The translations under genes were made by a program, and so were the position numbers. DNA of 64,000 nucleotides, from positions 12,191-76,190 of IMG/VR virus record IMGVR_UViG_3300022661_000085; one strand, given 5' to 3'. The notes under the pieces are model-generated. The model ran no database searches, was not told the DNA's origin, and saw only the letters and a list, made by a program, of their open reading frames with translations. This DNA is from a virus (Duplodnaviria > Heunggongvirae > Uroviricota > Caudoviricetes). Below are positions 37,857 through 41,672 of the stretch, piece after piece. How positions within the stretch are numbered: position 1 is the stretch's first letter; the number at the start of each line of letters is the position of its first letter.

Positions 37857-38243
37857 ATGAAAATCACAATCACAGCAGATGCCTACGCCATCACCTCGAA
37901 GATCACCGTTGACGAGATCAAGACGCTCAAGAAGAGCAATCCCGACGCCCTCAAGGTTAAGGACGCAGACGGCAACGAGAAGTTTGCGGTTTCGTATGCA
38001 GAGGGTAAGCCCAGCATCACCGCTTTCGGCGTTACCTTCGGCGGTAAGTCTCACGATGAGGCAGGCTATGCAACCATCACAGGTATGATCCCCACCGGCA
38101 CCGCGAACCCCAAGGAGTTCGTTGCTGACCTCGTTGCTCCTGTCAAGGCATACCTTGAGCAGGTCGAGGGAGTTGCTCACGACGCGGCTGTTGCAGCTAA
38201 GACTGCTCGCAAGGAGCTCGTTGACAGCATCACCGTAGCCTAA
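37857..38243 (+). CDS. hypothetical protein (128 aa), first gene of the Ubl operon
   Basis: ORF after an AAGGAAGGAAAC RBS. It is preceded by a palindromic copy of the promoter motif. Confidence 0.4.
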   Translation: MKITITADAYAITSKITVDEIKTLKKSNPDALKVKDADGNEKFAVSYAEGKPSITAFGVTFGGKSHDEAGYATITGMIPTGTANPKEFVADLVAPVKAYLEQVEGVAHDAAVAAKTARKELVDSITVA

Positions 38244-38334
38244 GTTACGGTTTCCGTTCACCAAGGGGCGTGAAATGCGCCCCTTCCACCACAACAAACA
38301 AATCAGAAAAAATTGAATTACAAGGAGAATTATT

Positions 38335-38577
38335 ATGATTAAAGTTGTTATCAAGACCAACACCATCCGTGGCAAGGAAGTTACCGCAGACGTGGATTCC
38401 ACTCCCGCAAGAGTATTCGGCGACCTCGGCGTTAGCGTAGCTGGCGCATCCGTTAACCTTAACGGTATGATTCTGACCGCGACCGATCTCAATTCCACCT
38501 TCGAGGCACTCGGTGTTGCCGACGGCGCAACCGTAAACCTCAACAGCGTCATCAAGGCTGACGGCGCTCGCAAGTAA
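38335..38577 (+). CDS. ubiquitin-like (beta-grasp, ThiS/MoaD-like) protein
   Basis: 80 aa. 'VNLNGMILTATDL...LGVADGATVNLNSVIKADG' resembles the ThiS/Ubl pattern. It ends ...ADG-ARK, so a short tail follows the Gly. Confidence 0.5.
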   Translation: MIKVVIKTNTIRGKEVTADVDSTPARVFGDLGVSVAGASVNLNGMILTATDLNSTFEALGVADGATVNLNSVIKADGARK

Positions 38578-38606
38578 AATAAAGCATACATAAGGAGCAA
38601 CGGGAT

Positions 38607-40004
38607 ATGGATTACATCGATACTCTATTAACCAATTCAGACGCAAATGCATTCTTCGGAGTGGAGAGTCATTCATTCCCTTTCGGTAGCACCGTCCTCG
38701 AAGCAACGCTTCGTTATGTTGCCGTGGTTCATTGCCCCGAGAACATCGAAAAGGTAAAGCTGATTAAGGTTCAGTCCTCTACCTTTAGCCCCGGTGCTCG
38801 CGGCAATGATTTCGCGGCTTCGATGATGGAGTCGTCTCACAATATTCTCATTGTAGAATCGAGAAACGGAGCAGAGTTGCCTTACATTGACAAAGAGGGC
38901 TGGATTGCATTAGATACGCCTCCGTATCCTGTTGCGCCTTTCTTGAGCAAGGCATCTGCCACAGCAGTATTCCTTAACAGGGATGCACAAAAGGTTATTC
39001 TTTTTGTTAAGCGTGTTACTGAAAGATGGATTGATGAGTTCTGCTCTTCCCTTTTCAGAATTCTTCCGTGGATCTATACGGAAAACTACAGACTCACGGA
39101 AGGTGAGCTCGCACTTTTCAAGGCGGCTCACGATAAAGATTCCCCAAAGTTCACCAAGGTGGTGAACGAGCTGGCTCAGAAGTATGATTTCAAATCTATG
39201 ATGATGGCAAGAACTCTCATCGGATGGAACAATCACTTCAGAGAAGCACAGATTCGTACCCTCGAAAGCAAGTGCGACAAGGCGAGAAACAATATTGCCG
39301 CACAAGAACAGGCTATCTCAACTTTGTATATGGAGCTTGATGCCCTGCTCTTTAATCTCAACGCGATGCTTAACCAACCCGCAGATACCAACGAAGCTCT
39401 GTTTAATTTCTTCAAAACCCACAAGCAGTTGGGAGTTTACAGAGTTCAGAACAGCTCGAACGGAAAGACGTTGTATTACACAATCACCGAAACGATTGAG
39501 TATTATGACGAGGATGCTTTCGTAAGAGTAAGAGATAACCCCAATTCTTACTTCAATACGAGCACTTGTGGTGCAGAAGTCAGAGAGGTGTTTAACGCTG
39601 TATTCGCTCTCAATAAGGGAAAGTTCAGAGTTGAGGCAATGTTTACGTTGAACAATCTTTCAAGCATCAATGCCCAATCCGGTATGAGAAGTGGTGGCTA
39701 TGATGAAACACACCTTCCTCATCCTCACATCTATCATCACGCTTGTCTCGGTGGAAACCGAGATGCAATCGCCAGATATATGAATGATGGCGACTGGGAT
39801 TTGGCAATCGAGCAGACAATCGCGGCTGCCAAGAACGTCAACTTTGGAGACTCGACCGTAGTATCCAAGATGTTGAGAGATGTCGCAGGTCGCTTTGAGT
39901 CTTGCCGTTGCATTATCGCAGATAACGGCACCGAAATGACTCCCAGAGAGTTCCTTAACTACATCAGAACGGCGGAGAACAATGAAGGAGATAACAATGG
40001 CTAA
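38607..40004 (+). CDS. E2-like ubiquitin-conjugating protein (C-terminal HPx...C active-site-like motif) with a large N-terminal domain
   Basis: 465 aa. 'LPHPHIYHHACLGGNRD' resembles the E2 'HPN...C' catalytic signature. Its stop overlaps the start of the JAB gene. Confidence 0.45.
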   Translation: MDYIDTLLTNSDANAFFGVESHSFPFGSTVLEATLRYVAVVHCPENIEKVKLIKVQSSTFSPGARGNDFAASMMESSHNILIVESRNGAELPYIDKEGWIALDTPPYPVAPFLSKASATAVFLNRDAQKVILFVKRVTERWIDEFCSSLFRILPWIYTENYRLTEGELALFKAAHDKDSPKFTKVVNELAQKYDFKSMMMARTLIGWNNHFREAQIRTLESKCDKARNNIAAQEQAISTLYMELDALLFNLNAMLNQPADTNEALFNFFKTHKQLGVYRVQNSSNGKTLYYTITETIEYYDEDAFVRVRDNPNSYFNTSTCGAEVREVFNAVFALNKGKFRVEAMFTLNNLSSINAQSGMRSGGYDETHLPHPHIYHHACLGGNRDAIARYMNDGDWDLAIEQTIAAAKNVNFGDSTVVSKMLRDVAGRFESCRCIIADNGTEMTPREFLNYIRTAENNEGDNNG

Positions 40005-41001
40005 GAGAATTTATTTGTCCGATGAGGACATTCGCGCAGCTCTTGAGAAAGCAACGCAGGAACTCCGCAATACGAAGTTTCATTCCGAGGATGTCAAGGT
40101 TACACTCCCTGCTCCTAAAGACAATCGCAAAGCAAAACTTGTTTTTGCAGCCAGTGCGTGGGTGAAAATGTACGCTTTAGTTCACAAATACGGCACTGAA
40201 GTCGAGTGGCACGGGCTTGTTGAGCGCAAAGGTGAGGCAGAATTCCTCATTAAGGACATCCTCATTTTCCCTCACGAGGTTTCCAGCGCAACGGTAGTAT
40301 CCGATCAGAGATGCTACGAAGAATGGCTTGACTCCCTCGATGACGAAACCTTCAACGCCTGTCGTTTCCACGGTCATAGCCACGTAAATATGGCTGTAAG
40401 CCCGTCAGGAGTTGATATGACATACAGGAAGAACATCTTGGGCAACTTCGCTACACCGGGTGCAGGAGATGATTACTTCTACATCTTCATCATCACAAAC
40501 AAAAAAGGCGATATCAGTGGCGAAATCTACGACTTGTCGAATAACGCTTTATATGCTACCAATGAAATCGAATTCTCGGTAATCGAGATTGAAGACATCA
40601 AGAGACGCATCAAGGACGCATTCCACGATGCCATTGAGGAATATGTAGACAGGCTCACTCAAAAGAACCTTACTTCGATCAATAGTAAGGGTGAGCTTAG
40701 CTTCACGATTTCCTCTGATGTCGAGGTAGAAGATGACTTCTTCCTTTCGGAACTTATCTCTGAAGCTGAAGGCGTAGTTGTAGAGCGTAGAGTTACTGCC
40801 CCCGTATCAACCTATCCTTATCACGGCACATACAACGGAAGCGCTCCGGCAGCGGCAACAACCCCGAAGACTACCTCATCCTTGCAGAGCAAACGTCCCG
40901 ACGTCGAAGACGACGATGATTATGGACGCCAAATTTCCCTCTATGACGACGATGATGAGGACGACTACTACAAACTCTACAGAGAGAGGTGCTCAGTATG
41001 A
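39982..41001 (+). CDS. JAB/MPN (JAMM) metalloprotease, deubiquitinase-like, with an acidic Asp-rich C-terminal tail
   Basis: 'E...HGHSHVNMAVSPSGVD' is the JAMM H-x-H-x7-S-x2-D motif, with an upstream Glu ('VEWHGLVERKGE'). The C-terminal reads 'DVEDDDDYG...YDDDDEDDYY'. Confidence 0.7.
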   Translation: MKEITMAKRIYLSDEDIRAALEKATQELRNTKFHSEDVKVTLPAPKDNRKAKLVFAASAWVKMYALVHKYGTEVEWHGLVERKGEAEFLIKDILIFPHEVSSATVVSDQRCYEEWLDSLDDETFNACRFHGHSHVNMAVSPSGVDMTYRKNILGNFATPGAGDDYFYIFIITNKKGDISGEIYDLSNNALYATNEIEFSVIEIEDIKRRIKDAFHDAIEEYVDRLTQKNLTSINSKGELSFTISSDVEVEDDFFLSELISEAEGVVVERRVTAPVSTYPYHGTYNGSAPAAATTPKTTSSLQSKRPDVEDDDDYGRQISLYDDDDEDDYYKLYRERCSV

Positions 41002-41672
41002 ATCTCGTAAAATCACAGGACTACTTCAATCCTATTGACGTAACCAGCCGATGTCACATCATCGGCTGTGGCTCCGTCGGCTCTACCGTGGCAGAGCTTC
41101 TTGTTCGCCTCGGTATCACAAAGATTTCCCTCTACGACTTTGACGTCGTTTCTGCTCACAATCTGGCGAACCAGATGTTTACCAATGCAGACATCAAGCG
41201 ACTCAAGGTTGATGCGGTAAAGGATATGCTGTGTGCAATTAACCCCGAAGCCGCGAACGACATCACTGTTTACCCCGAAGGGTGGACACAGAACACACGC
41301 TTGAGTGGCTATGTTTTCCTGTGCGTTGACAACATCGACCTCAGACGTGAAATCGCTATCAAGAACAAACCCAATCAGTCCATCAAAGCAATGTTTGATT
41401 TCAGAACTCGCCTTGAGGATGCTCAGCATTATGCCGCCGACTGGAAAGATTCCCGTATGGTGGACAATCTCATCCGCAGTATGGACTTCACTCACGAAGA
41501 AGCTAAAGCTTCGACTCCTGTAACGGCGTGCAACGTTGAAATGGGAGTAGCACCCACAGTAAGAATCATCTGTTCTTACGGAGTTTCTAACTTTATGAAC
41601 TTCATCAGAAAGAAGGAACTCAAGAAAATTGTTACGATAGACGCATTCAATTTTGATATTGATGCGTTTTAA
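40989..41672 (+). CDS. E1-like (ThiF/MoeB family) activating enzyme
   Basis: 'IIGCGSVGSTVAELLVRLGI..ISLYDFDVVSAHNLANQ' is the Rossmann GxGxxG and nucleotide-binding signature of E1/ThiF. The C-terminal Cys reads 'TACNVEMGVAP'. Its start overlaps the stop of the JAB gene. Confidence 0.75.
   Translation: MLSMNLVKSQDYFNPIDVTSRCHIIGCGSVGSTVAELLVRLGITKISLYDFDVVSAHNLANQMFTNADIKRLKVDAVKDMLCAINPEAANDITVYPEGWTQNTRLSGYVFLCVDNIDLRREIAIKNKPNQSIKAMFDFRTRLEDAQHYAADWKDSRMVDNLIRSMDFTHEEAKASTPVTACNVEMGVAPTVRIICSYGVSNFMNFIRKKELKKIVTIDAFNFDIDAF

What the first reader, a model, noticed from the sequence alone, without database searches (positions are those of the whole stretch)
37857..41672. Phage-borne ubiquitin-like conjugation operon: Ubl - E2-like - JAB - E1
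Four consecutive, translationally coupled genes encode the full enzymology of a ubiquitin-like transfer cascade. There is an 80-aa beta-grasp Ubl, a 465-aa protein whose C-terminus carries an E2-like 'HPH..HHAC' catalytic signature behind a ~300-aa domain of unknown function, a JAMM/JAB metalloprotease (H-x-H-x7-S-x2-D) with a poly-Asp tail, and a ThiF/E1 adenylating enzyme. Ubl-E2-JAB(DUB)-E1 is, from memory, the gene order of the recently described bacterial antiphage Bil-type systems. Here it sits inside a phage genome next to counter-defence genes. It could be a phage-encoded version that modifies virion or host proteins, or it could drive superinfection exclusion. The Ubl ends in ...ADG-ARK, so a short tail follows the Gly. 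That suggests JAB-dependent maturation. The E2 N-terminal domain is a candidate substrate-recognition module.
Basis: partly seen in the sequence, partly recalled or inferred. Interest (0 to 1): 0.85.

Follow-up and report, generated by a model that had tools for sequence, protein, structure and literature searches.

The report
Phage ubiquitin-like tagging cassette beside reverse transcriptase
A large group of roughly 100-kb gut Clostridia phages carries its own ubiquitin-like protein with an activating enzyme, a trimming protease and a probable transfer enzyme, always next to a retron-type reverse transcriptase, which matters because such tagging systems are so far known mainly as bacterial defences against phages.

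Summary

This is not a Bil system. The E1 has one domain and lacks the canonical ATP-binding Arg. The E2-like protein is three times larger. The Ubl's conserved C-terminal residue across the family is Ala78, not Gly77.

There are two new findings. The cassette is part of a fixed block, p128-Ubl-E2L-JAB-E1-RT, found in about 170 phage loci. The E2-like family has more than 2,000 clusters at 50% identity and no annotation.

My best reading is a phage-run, E3-independent Ubl conjugation cascade used during infection. The target and the role of the RT are unknown. I rate it a new variant of a known kind, with high interest.

The parts
37857..38243 (+). p128: conserved ~130-aa protein of unknown function that always sits directly upstream of the Ubl gene
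   Evidence: ORF. Present in the same position in nearly all loci. No Pfam, PHROG, PADLOC, NCBIfam or PDB match.
38335..38577 (+). Ubiquitin-like beta-grasp protein (80 aa), ending K74-A-D-G77-A78 plus an RK tail
   Evidence: AF2 pLDDT 89, pTM 0.77, with b-b-a-b-b-h-b topology and a disordered tail at 76-80. Foldseek PDB hits are ISG15, ubiquitin, SUMO, Hub1 and TtuB at E about 2e-4, prob 1.0. C-terminal comparison.
38607..40004 (+). E2L: 465-aa probable Ubl-transfer enzyme. It has a variable N-terminal alpha/beta domain, a long helix (207-256), and a C-terminal alpha+beta domain with invariant H374, C380, G382 and D/E415
39997..41001 (+). JAMM/JAB-type metallopeptidase (334 aa from the homologue-supported start) with an acidic, aromatic C-terminal tail
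   Evidence: E73...H132-S-H134-x7-S142-x2-D145 are invariant in 84 unique sequences, while nearby His residues vary. hhalign against from-memory JAMM sequences gives P=5e-4 with the motif in register. The start overlaps the E2L stop.
40998..41672 (+). Minimal single-domain E1 (ThiF/MoeB/UBA5-like, 224 aa). It has an invariant GCGSxGS, D50/D52, K73, D114, R119 and C181, with Asn in place of the NLxRQ Arg
   Evidence: Pfam ThiF 2.6e-24. PDB profile hits include UBA5 at 7.6e-13. hhalign to MoeB gives 98% probability over residues 18-123. Invariant residues. ATGA overlap with the JAB stop.
41684..41748 (+). Copy of a repeated, structured intergenic element (two hairpins followed by GTRMC-AWWWTG) that marks the 3' boundary of the cassette
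   Evidence: Alignment and covariation. The CM finds several copies per locus, all on the gene strand. Window copies lie at 34226, 41684 and 43596.
41996..43390 (+). Retron-type reverse transcriptase (464 aa) that always follows the E1
   Evidence: Pfam RVT_1 5e-20, PADLOC retron RT_II-A 1.7e-44, NCBIfam retron_St85_RT 167 bits against a cutoff of 235. Adjacency holds in E1-anchored and RT-anchored loci.

Best explanation
The region encodes a phage-run ubiquitin-like conjugation cascade that works without a separate E3.

Proposed steps:
1. The 80-aa pro-Ubl is trimmed by the JAMM peptidase. This removes the short variable tail (RK here) and exposes the conserved C-terminal Ala78.
2. The small, probably homodimeric ThiF/UBA5-like E1 adenylates that carboxylate, and probably holds the Ubl on its invariant Cys181.
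3. The Ubl passes to the invariant Cys380 of the 465-aa E2-like protein.
4. The fast-evolving N-terminal half of the E2-like protein selects the target and delivers the Ubl to it.
5. The JAMM enzyme may also reverse the tagging.

The cassette is one unit with the upstream p128 gene and a downstream retron-type RT. It is carried in a large lineage of roughly 100-125-kb phages of gut Clostridia. It most likely serves the phage during infection by modifying host or phage proteins, in a genome arm that also holds NAD-salvage and tRNA-repair counter-defence genes.

Shown by tool results: the folds or motifs of the Ubl, E1 and JAB; the gene order; the distribution.

Inferred: the thioester relay, the E2 role of the 465-aa protein, the cleavage site, the target, and the benefit to the phage.
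For: - Ubl: beta-grasp fold.
- E1: ThiF family with the P-loop, Asp, Lys and an invariant Cys.
- JAB: the JAMM residues are exactly the invariant positions.
- Tight packing with overlapping start and stop codons.
- The Ubl tails are variable and follow a conserved residue, as in type II BilA (PMC10557695).
- E2L evolves fastest (29-47% identity against 65-82% for E1), and its N-terminal residues 41-100 vary most. It is only 62% identical in L006, where p128 is identical and the Ubl 98.75% identical.
- Phage hallmark genes are present, 199 IMG/VR contigs carry the E1, and the block p128>Ubl>E2L>JAB>E1>RT is almost universal.
Against: - The E1 lacks the near-universal ATP-binding Arg (MoeB R73) in every family member.
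- The Ubl has no conserved C-terminal Gly. Most members end in Asn-Ala.
- No JAB family model hits the peptidase.
- The window carries an integrase, so a prophage-borne defence role is not excluded.
- No target is known and there is no experimental evidence.
- I did not test whether the cassette is core in this phage lineage, because every search was anchored on cassette genes.
Confidence: 0.55

Rival explanations
1. Prophage-borne anti-phage defence (superinfection exclusion). The lysogen uses the Ubl cascade like Bil, tagging an incoming phage's structural protein. The adjacent retron-type RT would be part of the same defence island or system.
For: - Same gene order and logic as Bil, and Bil's E2 is proposed to recognise targets directly.
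- An integrase is in the window.
- JAB homologues occur on contigs up to 926 kb, so some copies are probably integrated.
- E2L evolves rapidly and in a mosaic way, as expected in an arms race.
- The RT's best matches are retron RTs, which are defence genes.
Against: - The block is not a sporadic moron. It was complete, in the same order and next to the RT, in nearly all of the roughly 170 phage loci with enough flank, at E2L identities down to about 29%.
- It sits among nucleic-acid metabolism and counter-defence-type genes, not at a typical moron site.
- No defence HMM hits anything except the generic E1 domain and the RT.
Confidence: 0.2
2. The system is not a protein-tagging system. The Ubl/E1/JAB trio would act as an acyl-adenylate or carrier system, like ThiS/MoaD/CysO sulfur carriers or MccB-type C-terminal chemistry. 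The 465-aa Cys enzyme would pass the activated group to a non-protein acceptor, possibly nucleic acid made or used by the neighbouring RT, or tRNA.
For: - The E1's closest sequence relatives include MoeB, ThiF, MccB and TcdA as well as UBA5.
- The E2 fold is unproven.
- Most Ubls have a C-terminal Asn-Ala, and the E1 lacks the canonical Arg, which hints at non-standard chemistry.
- Linkage to the RT is obligatory, and the phage encodes 16-18 tRNAs.
Against: - There is no Gly-Gly end, which all sulfur carriers have (own knowledge).
- No rhodanese, PP-loop or Fe-S partner appears in the block.
- The Ubl's nearest structural matches are conjugating Ubls (ISG15, ubiquitin, SUMO). TtuB ranks only 48th.
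- The Ubl-x-JAB-E1 order matches conjugation systems.
Confidence: 0.12
3. The RT adjacency is inherited phage synteny with no functional link. The cassette works alone, and the RT is an independent gene with its own flanking intergenic elements.
For: - Copies of the repeated intergenic element flank the RT on both sides (41684 and 43596), which suggests a separate transcription unit.
- The E1-RT gap varies from 17 to 1,558 nt. In 44 loci it holds an extra gene of about 268 aa, and in 3 loci the RNase H gene.
- All loci may descend from one phage lineage.
Against: Adjacency survives where the surrounding genes differ completely and E2L identity is below 35%. RT-anchored loci with upstream sequence carry the cassette, with one exception.
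Confidence: 0.4

Closest known systems
Bil (BilABCD) type I/II bacterial anti-phage ubiquitination systems
   Same: - Four components in the same order, Ubl-E2-JAB-E1.
- No E3.
- Single beta-grasp Ubl with a short non-conserved C-terminal tail after a conserved residue.
- A JAB peptidase expected to trim it (PMC10557695 and PMC11601596).
   Different: - BilD is a multidomain E1 (IAD-AAD-CYS). Here the E1 is one 224-aa adenylation domain closest to UBA5/MoeB.
- Type II BilB carries a CEHH motif, with the conserved His after the Cys. Here the protein is 465 aa, with an N-terminal domain, a coiled coil and the motif [N/H]-[P/T]-H-x5-C.
- The conserved Ubl end is Ala, not Gly.
- It is encoded by phages rather than by bacterial defence islands, and it is always linked to an RT and p128.
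Type II CBASS Cap2/Cap3 and the related 6A-MBL system
   Different: - In Cap2 the E2 and E1 are fused, and the substrate is a CD-NTase rather than a Ubl.
- Here there is no CD-NTase or effector, and the Ubl is free-standing.
- The hits cover only about 70 residues of the Rossmann core.
Bub (6E/DUF6527) bacterial ubiquitination-like operons
   Same: Both are diverged Ubl/E1/E2/peptidase sets with non-canonical active sites. BubCD is a distant PDB hit of the E1 profile at 8.5e-6.
   Different: - Bub works through Ser/Tyr oxyesters, has Ubl-E2 or E2-E1 fusions, and includes the DUF6527 protease.
- Here both E1 and E2L keep an invariant Cys, the genes are separate, and there is no DUF6527.
Minimal E1 / beta-grasp carrier / JAMM trios (MoeB-MoaD, ThiF-ThiS, CysO-Mec+, archaeal SAMP-UbaA-JAMM)
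   Same: Small single-domain E1, a roughly 80-aa beta-grasp protein, and a JAMM enzyme that trims C-terminal extensions (Iyer et al. 2006).
   Different: Those carriers end in Gly-Gly, and most need sulfurtransferase partners. Here the end is D-[G/N/S]-A, there is a fourth, large Cys enzyme, and the canonical Arg is missing.
Lambda/T1-type phage tail assembly Ubl (TAPI) with JAB-NlpC/P60 (TAPK)
   Same: This is the only previously described phage-borne pairing of a Ubl with a JAB peptidase (PMC1779556).
   Different: It has no E1 or E2 and lies in the tail module. Here the cassette lies in the non-structural arm, about 20 kb from the head and tail genes, and has an activating enzyme.
Retrons (RT plus msr/msd ncRNA plus effector)
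   Same: The neighbouring RT scores best against retron RT models (St85 family, RT_II-A). Retrons pair an RT with variable effector genes.
   Different: - The score is below the NCBIfam cutoff (167 against 235 bits).
- No msr/msd-like RNA was found.
- The structured element upstream of the RT is a repeated intergenic element, not RT-specific, and it shows no conserved long-range pairing.
- No known retron type has Ubl/E1/JAB effectors (own knowledge of Mestre et al. 2020).

Membership tests
Ubiquitin-like beta-grasp modifiers | beta-grasp fold (b-b-a-b-b-b) | tested here: met
   The AF2 model has pLDDT 89 and the right topology. Foldseek PDB top hits are ISG15, ubiquitin and SUMO, with prob 1.0 and TM about 0.6.
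Ubiquitin-like beta-grasp modifiers | Conserved C-terminal glycine (Gly or Gly-Gly) as the reactive end | tested here: not met
   The window protein has G77, but across 54 sequences (53 unique homologues plus the window) this position is N 32, G 16, S 5. A78 is conserved in 52 of 54, and most proteins end at it.
E1 / ThiF / MoeB adenylating enzymes | Rossmann-type adenylation domain passing the family model | tested here: met
   Pfam ThiF scores 86.2 bits against a cutoff of 28.1 and covers residues 19-223. hhalign to MoeB gives 98% probability. UBA5 scores 7.6e-13.
E1 / ThiF / MoeB adenylating enzymes | ATP-binding Arg of the NLxRQ motif (MoeB R73) | tested here: not met
   It aligns to Asn61 (HNLANQ) in the MoeB and UBA5 alignments. 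Asn is present in all 76 sequences.
E1 / ThiF / MoeB adenylating enzymes | Catalytic Asp (MoeB D130), the following Arg (R135), and the P-loop GxGxxG | tested here: met
   D114, R119 and G26-x-G28-x-x-G31 are invariant.
E1 / ThiF / MoeB adenylating enzymes | Crossover-loop catalytic Cys for the Ubl thioester | tested here: inconclusive
   Cys181 is invariant in TP-x-x-A-C. However, pairwise and profile alignments to MoeB stop at residue 123. The equivalence to MoeB C187 is my reading only.
JAMM/JAB (MPN+) metallopeptidases | E...H-x-H-x7-S-x2-D zinc and catalytic motif | tested here: met
   E73, H132, H134, S142 and D145 are invariant in 84 sequences, while neighbouring His residues vary.
JAMM/JAB (MPN+) metallopeptidases | Match to a curated family model or a solved JAMM structure | tested here: not met
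   There is no Pfam, NCBIfam, PADLOC or PDB-profile hit, even at lenient thresholds.
E2 / UBC-fold conjugating enzymes | UBC fold | tested here: inconclusive
E2 / UBC-fold conjugating enzymes | Catalytic Cys preceded by an HPN-type motif | tested here: inconclusive
   C380 and H374 are invariant, six residues apart. The window reads HPH, while most of the family reads N-P-H or N-T-H, so it is not HPN. hhalign to canonical E2s pairs the motifs but gives P=0.13.
E2 / UBC-fold conjugating enzymes | Match to UQ_con, Prok-E2 or another E2 family model | tested here: not met
   None of the 52 family members hits any E2-type Pfam model at E<=10. None hits in PADLOC, NCBIfam or the PDB profile search.
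Bil (BilABCD) | Gene order Ubl-E2-JAB-E1 with a separate Ubl | tested here: met
   compared with PMC10557695.
Bil (BilABCD) | [quoted passage not shown] | tested here: not met
   The E1 is 224 aa with one adenylation domain. The definition comes from PMC11601596.
Bil (BilABCD) | Encoded by bacteria as an anti-phage defence that tags a virion protein | not testable with these tools
   The context here is phage genomes. Function needs experiments.
Type II CBASS (Cap2/Cap3) | E2-E1 fusion acting on a CD-NTase, with an effector | tested here: not met
   Only the E1 core matches Cap2 models. No CD-NTase or effector appears in the neighbourhoods.
Bub (6E) | Cys-less E1/E2 and the DUF6527 serine protease BubE | tested here: not met
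   E1 and E2L each keep an invariant Cys. No DUF6527 hit.
Retron | Retron-clade RT passing a curated model | tested here: inconclusive
   The best NCBIfam model is retron_St85_RT at 167 bits, below the 235 cutoff. PADLOC RT_II-A gives 1.7e-44.
Retron | Adjacent msr/msd ncRNA with flanking inverted repeats | tested here: not met
   There is no Rfam hit. The structured element upstream of the RT is repeated elsewhere. No conserved long-range pairing was found.

The most novel reading that the evidence does not exclude
The Ubl cascade and the retron-type RT form one functional phage machine, which would be a previously undescribed pairing of ubiquitin-like tagging with reverse transcription. Two possibilities fit. 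The cascade might tag, activate or be guided by the RT or its cDNA. Alternatively, p128, the RT and the Ubl cascade might together form a phage counter-defence or host-takeover system. Activation chemistry may also be non-canonical, given the Arg-less E1 and the Ala- or Asn-Ala-ended Ubl.
Probability: 0.3. Interest if true: 0.9.

Novelty: new variant of a known kind. Interest (0 to 1): 0.78.

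Why it matters
Complete Ubl-E1-E2-peptidase cascades in the prokaryotic world have so far been characterised as bacterial weapons against phages (Bil, type II CBASS) or remain of unknown role (Bub). 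Here a full set is a fixed part of a very abundant, uncultured group of gut Clostridia phages. That would mean phages also use ubiquitin-like tagging.

The system departs from the textbook cascade in several ways:
- a minimal E1 without the canonical Arg;
- a Ubl without a conserved terminal Gly;
- a giant, fast-evolving transfer enzyme that has no family model, although the family holds more than 2,000 clusters at 50% identity.

The strict pairing with a retron-type RT offers a concrete, testable link between two kinds of machinery not known to work together. The proteins are small, soluble-looking and easy to test in vitro.

Tried and rejected
- Megablast of 36-45 kb against GenBank phages found no match. 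By protein search, only one fecal-metagenome phage record (MT835544.1) carries a close E1.
- E2L: Foldseek against PDB gave nothing. The HMMER profile against PDB gave only coiled-coil noise. Lenient Pfam scans on 52 members gave no E2, RWD or UEV family.
- The exhaustive profile search listed only same-architecture family members among its best 150, so it gave no bridge to a named family.
- JAB: phmmer and profile searches against PDB, and lenient Pfam scans, gave nothing. The LsrG and 'exonuclease' hits fall in a clade-specific insert and are probably spurious.
- p128: the profile against PDB and PHROGs gave nothing.
- I first took the covarying two-hairpin element after the E1 to be a retron msr. 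I rejected this because the CM finds several copies per locus and the window has three. No conserved a1/a2-type long-range pairing was found.
- A DGR explanation for E2L variability is rejected. There are no TR/VR repeats and the RT motifs are retron-like.
- Alignment of the C-terminal half of the E1 to MoeB failed, so the Cys equivalence stays unproven.
- The Xanthomonas jumbo-phage ThiF neighbourhood did not resemble this cassette.

Full report
**Observation**

The + strand between 37857 and 41672 holds five ORFs, not four:
- p128, 37857-38243
- an 80-aa ORF, 38335-38577
- a 465-aa ORF, 38607-40004
- a JAB-like ORF, 39982-41001
- a ThiF-like ORF, 40989-41672

Alignments with homologues move the JAB start to ATG 39997 and the E1 start to ATG 40998. 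The E2L stop then overlaps the JAB start (ATGGCTAA), and the JAB stop overlaps the E1 start (ATGA). The Ubl and E2L genes are 29 nt apart. These are real genes. E2L has 94 homologue clusters at 90% identity, JAB 802 and the Ubl 32, and their order is conserved.

**The Ubl**

With a 29-sequence alignment, AlphaFold2 gives pLDDT 89 and pTM 0.77, a b1-b2-a1-b3-b4-h-b5 topology and a disordered tail at residues 76-80. Foldseek against PDB returns ISG15, ubiquitin, SUMO, Hub1, an archaeal ubiquitin and TtuB, with probability 1.0, E about 2e-4 and TM about 0.6. The beta-grasp test is met.

In the window's own clade the end is K-A-D-G-A followed by one to five variable residues. Across 54 sequences (53 unique homologues from the wider family plus the window), position 77 is Asn 32, Gly 16 and Ser 5. 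Ala78 is kept in 52 of 54, and most proteins simply end ...KADNA. No member ends at position 77. I therefore infer that the reactive C-terminus is Ala78, and that the JAB enzyme removes what follows it (RK in the window).

**The E1**

- Pfam ThiF scores 2.6e-24 over residues 19-223.
- The family profile hits UBA5 at 7.6e-13, followed by Uba1, UBA6, MoeB, MccB, ThiF, TcdA, Cap2 and, weakly, BubCD.
- The E1 is one adenylation domain of 224 aa and is very conserved, at 59-82% identity where E2L is 29-47%.
- Invariant residues in 76 sequences are the P-loop, D50/D52, K73, D114, R119, R139 and Cys181.
- The position of MoeB R73 (NLxRQ) is Asn in every member. The alignments to MoeB and UBA5 are unambiguous there.

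I cannot say what this does to the chemistry. Whether Cys181 equals the crossover-loop Cys of MoeB, ThiF and UBA5 is my reading only, because the tool alignments stop at residue 123.

**The JAB**

No curated model or solved structure is hit. Even so, in 84 unique sequences the invariant residues are exactly E73, H132, H134, S142 and D145. That is the E...HxHx7Sx2D JAMM signature. Nearby His residues (H77, H98, H130) vary. This is a lead, not a database result. The acidic C-terminal tail with Tyr residues is conserved in character.

**The "E2"**

The AF2 model is confident (pLDDT 89.7). It shows an N-terminal alpha/beta domain, a 50-residue helix (207-256), and a C-terminal domain with this order:
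- helix 264-271
- strands 275-283 and 286-296
- a helical insert
- strands 338-349 and 353-356
- a loop carrying H374
- C380
- helices

H374, C380 and G382 are invariant in more than 200 sequences, and position 415 is Asp or Glu. The window's HPH reads N-P-H or N-T-H in most relatives, so it is not a true HPN motif.

Evidence on the fold is mixed:
- Foldseek against PDB finds nothing.
- Pfam, PADLOC, NCBIfam and the PDB profile search are all negative.
- hhalign to canonical E2s is not significant, although it pairs HPH with HPN, C with C and W with W.

My verdict is that this is a Cys enzyme in the E2 slot with a plausibly UBC-like domain, but it is not proven. It is the fastest-evolving component, and residues 41-100 are the most variable. 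In locus L006 it is only 62% identical, although p128 is identical and the Ubl 98.75% identical. That fits a target-recognition role.

**Context and distribution**

The window is phage DNA. Its left arm encodes a tape measure protein, portal, large terminase, integrase and exonuclease. There are 16-18 tRNA genes. The right arm encodes a PNK-like kinase, a phosphoesterase, a PRTase plus NAMPT, Thg1, a Band-7 protein and an RNA ligase. An almost identical cassette lies on a 106-kb contig of a Clostridia MAG from sheep colon. Other copies are in Christensenella, Lachnospiraceae and Eubacteriales MAGs. The E1 occurs on 199 IMG/VR contigs, and the listed contigs are mostly 50-139 kb. An exhaustive profile search finds 2,198 E2L clusters at 50% identity. 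Nearly all of the 150 listed are about 460-aa proteins matching over their full length.

**The block is larger than reported**

In 98 loci, most of them anchored on the E1, the order p128>Ubl>E2L>JAB>E1>RT is nearly universal. It also holds in distant members whose surrounding genes are unrelated. Anchoring on the RT instead finds at least 506 relatives in IMG/VR. Every one of the 79 new loci in the best 80 with upstream sequence carries the cassette, apart from L101, which has only a Ubl-like gene and the RT.

The RT is retron-type: PADLOC RT_II-A 1.7e-44, and NCBIfam retron_St85_RT 167 bits, below the cutoff of 235. It has a conserved N-terminal extension. In 44 loci an unannotated gene of about 268 aa sits between the E1 and the RT.

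I found no RT-specific RNA. A covarying two-hairpin element begins 12 nt after the E1 stop. It is a repeated intergenic element with several copies per locus and three in the window. It may mark the limits of transcription units.

**Mechanism**

The most likely mechanism is JAMM trimming of the pro-Ubl, then E1 adenylation and probably a thioester on Cys181, then transfer to E2L Cys380, then E3-independent delivery to a target chosen by the variable half of E2L. The JAMM enzyme would also act as the eraser.

The folds, motifs, gene order and distribution rest on tool results. The relay, the cleavage site, the target and the direction of benefit are inferred.

I favour a function for the phage itself for two reasons. 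The block is fixed across a very diverse set of phage contigs. It also lies among nucleic-acid and counter-defence-type genes. However, all my searches were anchored on cassette genes, and the phage has an integrase, so prophage-borne defence remains a serious rival.

**Comparison and novelty**

The system works like Bil in order and logic, but it fails Bil's defining E1 architecture and E2 motif. It is not CBASS, because there is no fusion and no CD-NTase. It is not Bub, because the Cys residues are kept and there is no DUF6527. It is not a sulfur-carrier set, because there is no Gly-Gly end and no sulfurtransferase partner. Full-text searches found no paper describing a phage-encoded complete Ubl cascade, or any Ubl-RT linkage. 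No cultured phage in GenBank carries it. I rate it a new variant of a known kind, with high interest.

Noticed in passing
window 34226-34291, 41684-41748, 43596-43657 (+); many copies in L001-L098: A repeated structured intergenic element (ATAAAG..AAT, hairpin 1, hairpin 2, then GTRMC-AWWWTG), always on the gene strand, with several copies per phage locus. Hairpin 2 shows strong covariation: 87% of cells are paired and 212 cells have compensatory changes, against 72 in shuffles. It may be a promoter, terminator or RNA-processing signal of this phage group.
   Followed up: partly
window 35501-35616 and 35624-35741 (+), just upstream of 36159-37676: Two unusually long tRNA-like Rfam hits (116-118 nt) that ARAGORN does not call. 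They sit beside tRNA-Tyr and directly upstream of a DUF2828/DUF7788/vWA protein (phrog_850 'RNA-binding protein'). They could be intron-containing tRNAs, or tRNA-like RNAs partnered with that protein.
   Followed up: no
window 53057-55361 (+): A phosphoribosyltransferase-domain protein followed by a NAMPT-like protein (NAPRTase plus NAMPT_N). From memory, this resembles phage NAD+ reconstitution counter-defence genes.
   Followed up: no
window 47000-49541, 57632-58441, 60863-62002 (+): A PNK-like kinase (AAA_33/KTI12), a calcineurin-like phosphoesterase, a Thg1 tRNA-His guanylyltransferase homologue and an RNA ligase. Together with 16-18 tRNA genes, these look like a tRNA repair and replacement toolkit.
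   Followed up: no
L006 1696-3081 compared with window 38607-40004: p128 is identical and the Ubl 98.75% identical to the window's, and JAB is 91% identical, but E2L is only 62% identical. It is most divergent in residues 176-275. This suggests recombination or allele swapping at E2L.
   Followed up: partly
L101 4804-5037 and 5974-7383: The only RT-anchored locus with upstream sequence that lacks E2L, JAB and E1. It has a Ubl-like gene (32% identity) shortly before the RT.
   Followed up: partly
L017 11361-12140, L021 3480-4310 and 42 other loci: In the larger clade, whose Ubls end in Asn-Ala, a conserved gene of about 268 aa with no Pfam match lies between the E1 and the RT. L004 has an extra 160-aa gene between JAB and the E1.
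   Followed up: partly
window 40594-40750 (JAB residues about 205-255): The window's JAB and its four closest relatives carry an insert of about 50 residues that is absent from the rest of the family. It is the source of the weak LsrG and 'exonuclease' hits.
   Followed up: no
window 19727-20740 (-): A tyrosine integrase (phrog_1, 6.6e-42) sits between the terminase region and an exonuclease gene, which suggests a temperate lifestyle.
   Followed up: no
window 38264-38288 (+): A GC-rich hairpin (GGGGCG-TGAAAT-GCGCCCC) lies between p128 and the Ubl gene, with no T-run after it. It could be an attenuator or a processing site inside the block.
   Followed up: no
L178 (Xanthomonas phage PhiXhv-12, 143445-145004): Jumbo Xanthomonas and Erwinia phages and Dulem virus 41 encode a distant ThiF (29% identity). 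In PhiXhv-12 it is followed by 70-aa and 243-aa hypothetical proteins, which may be another phage E1-based system.
   Followed up: no
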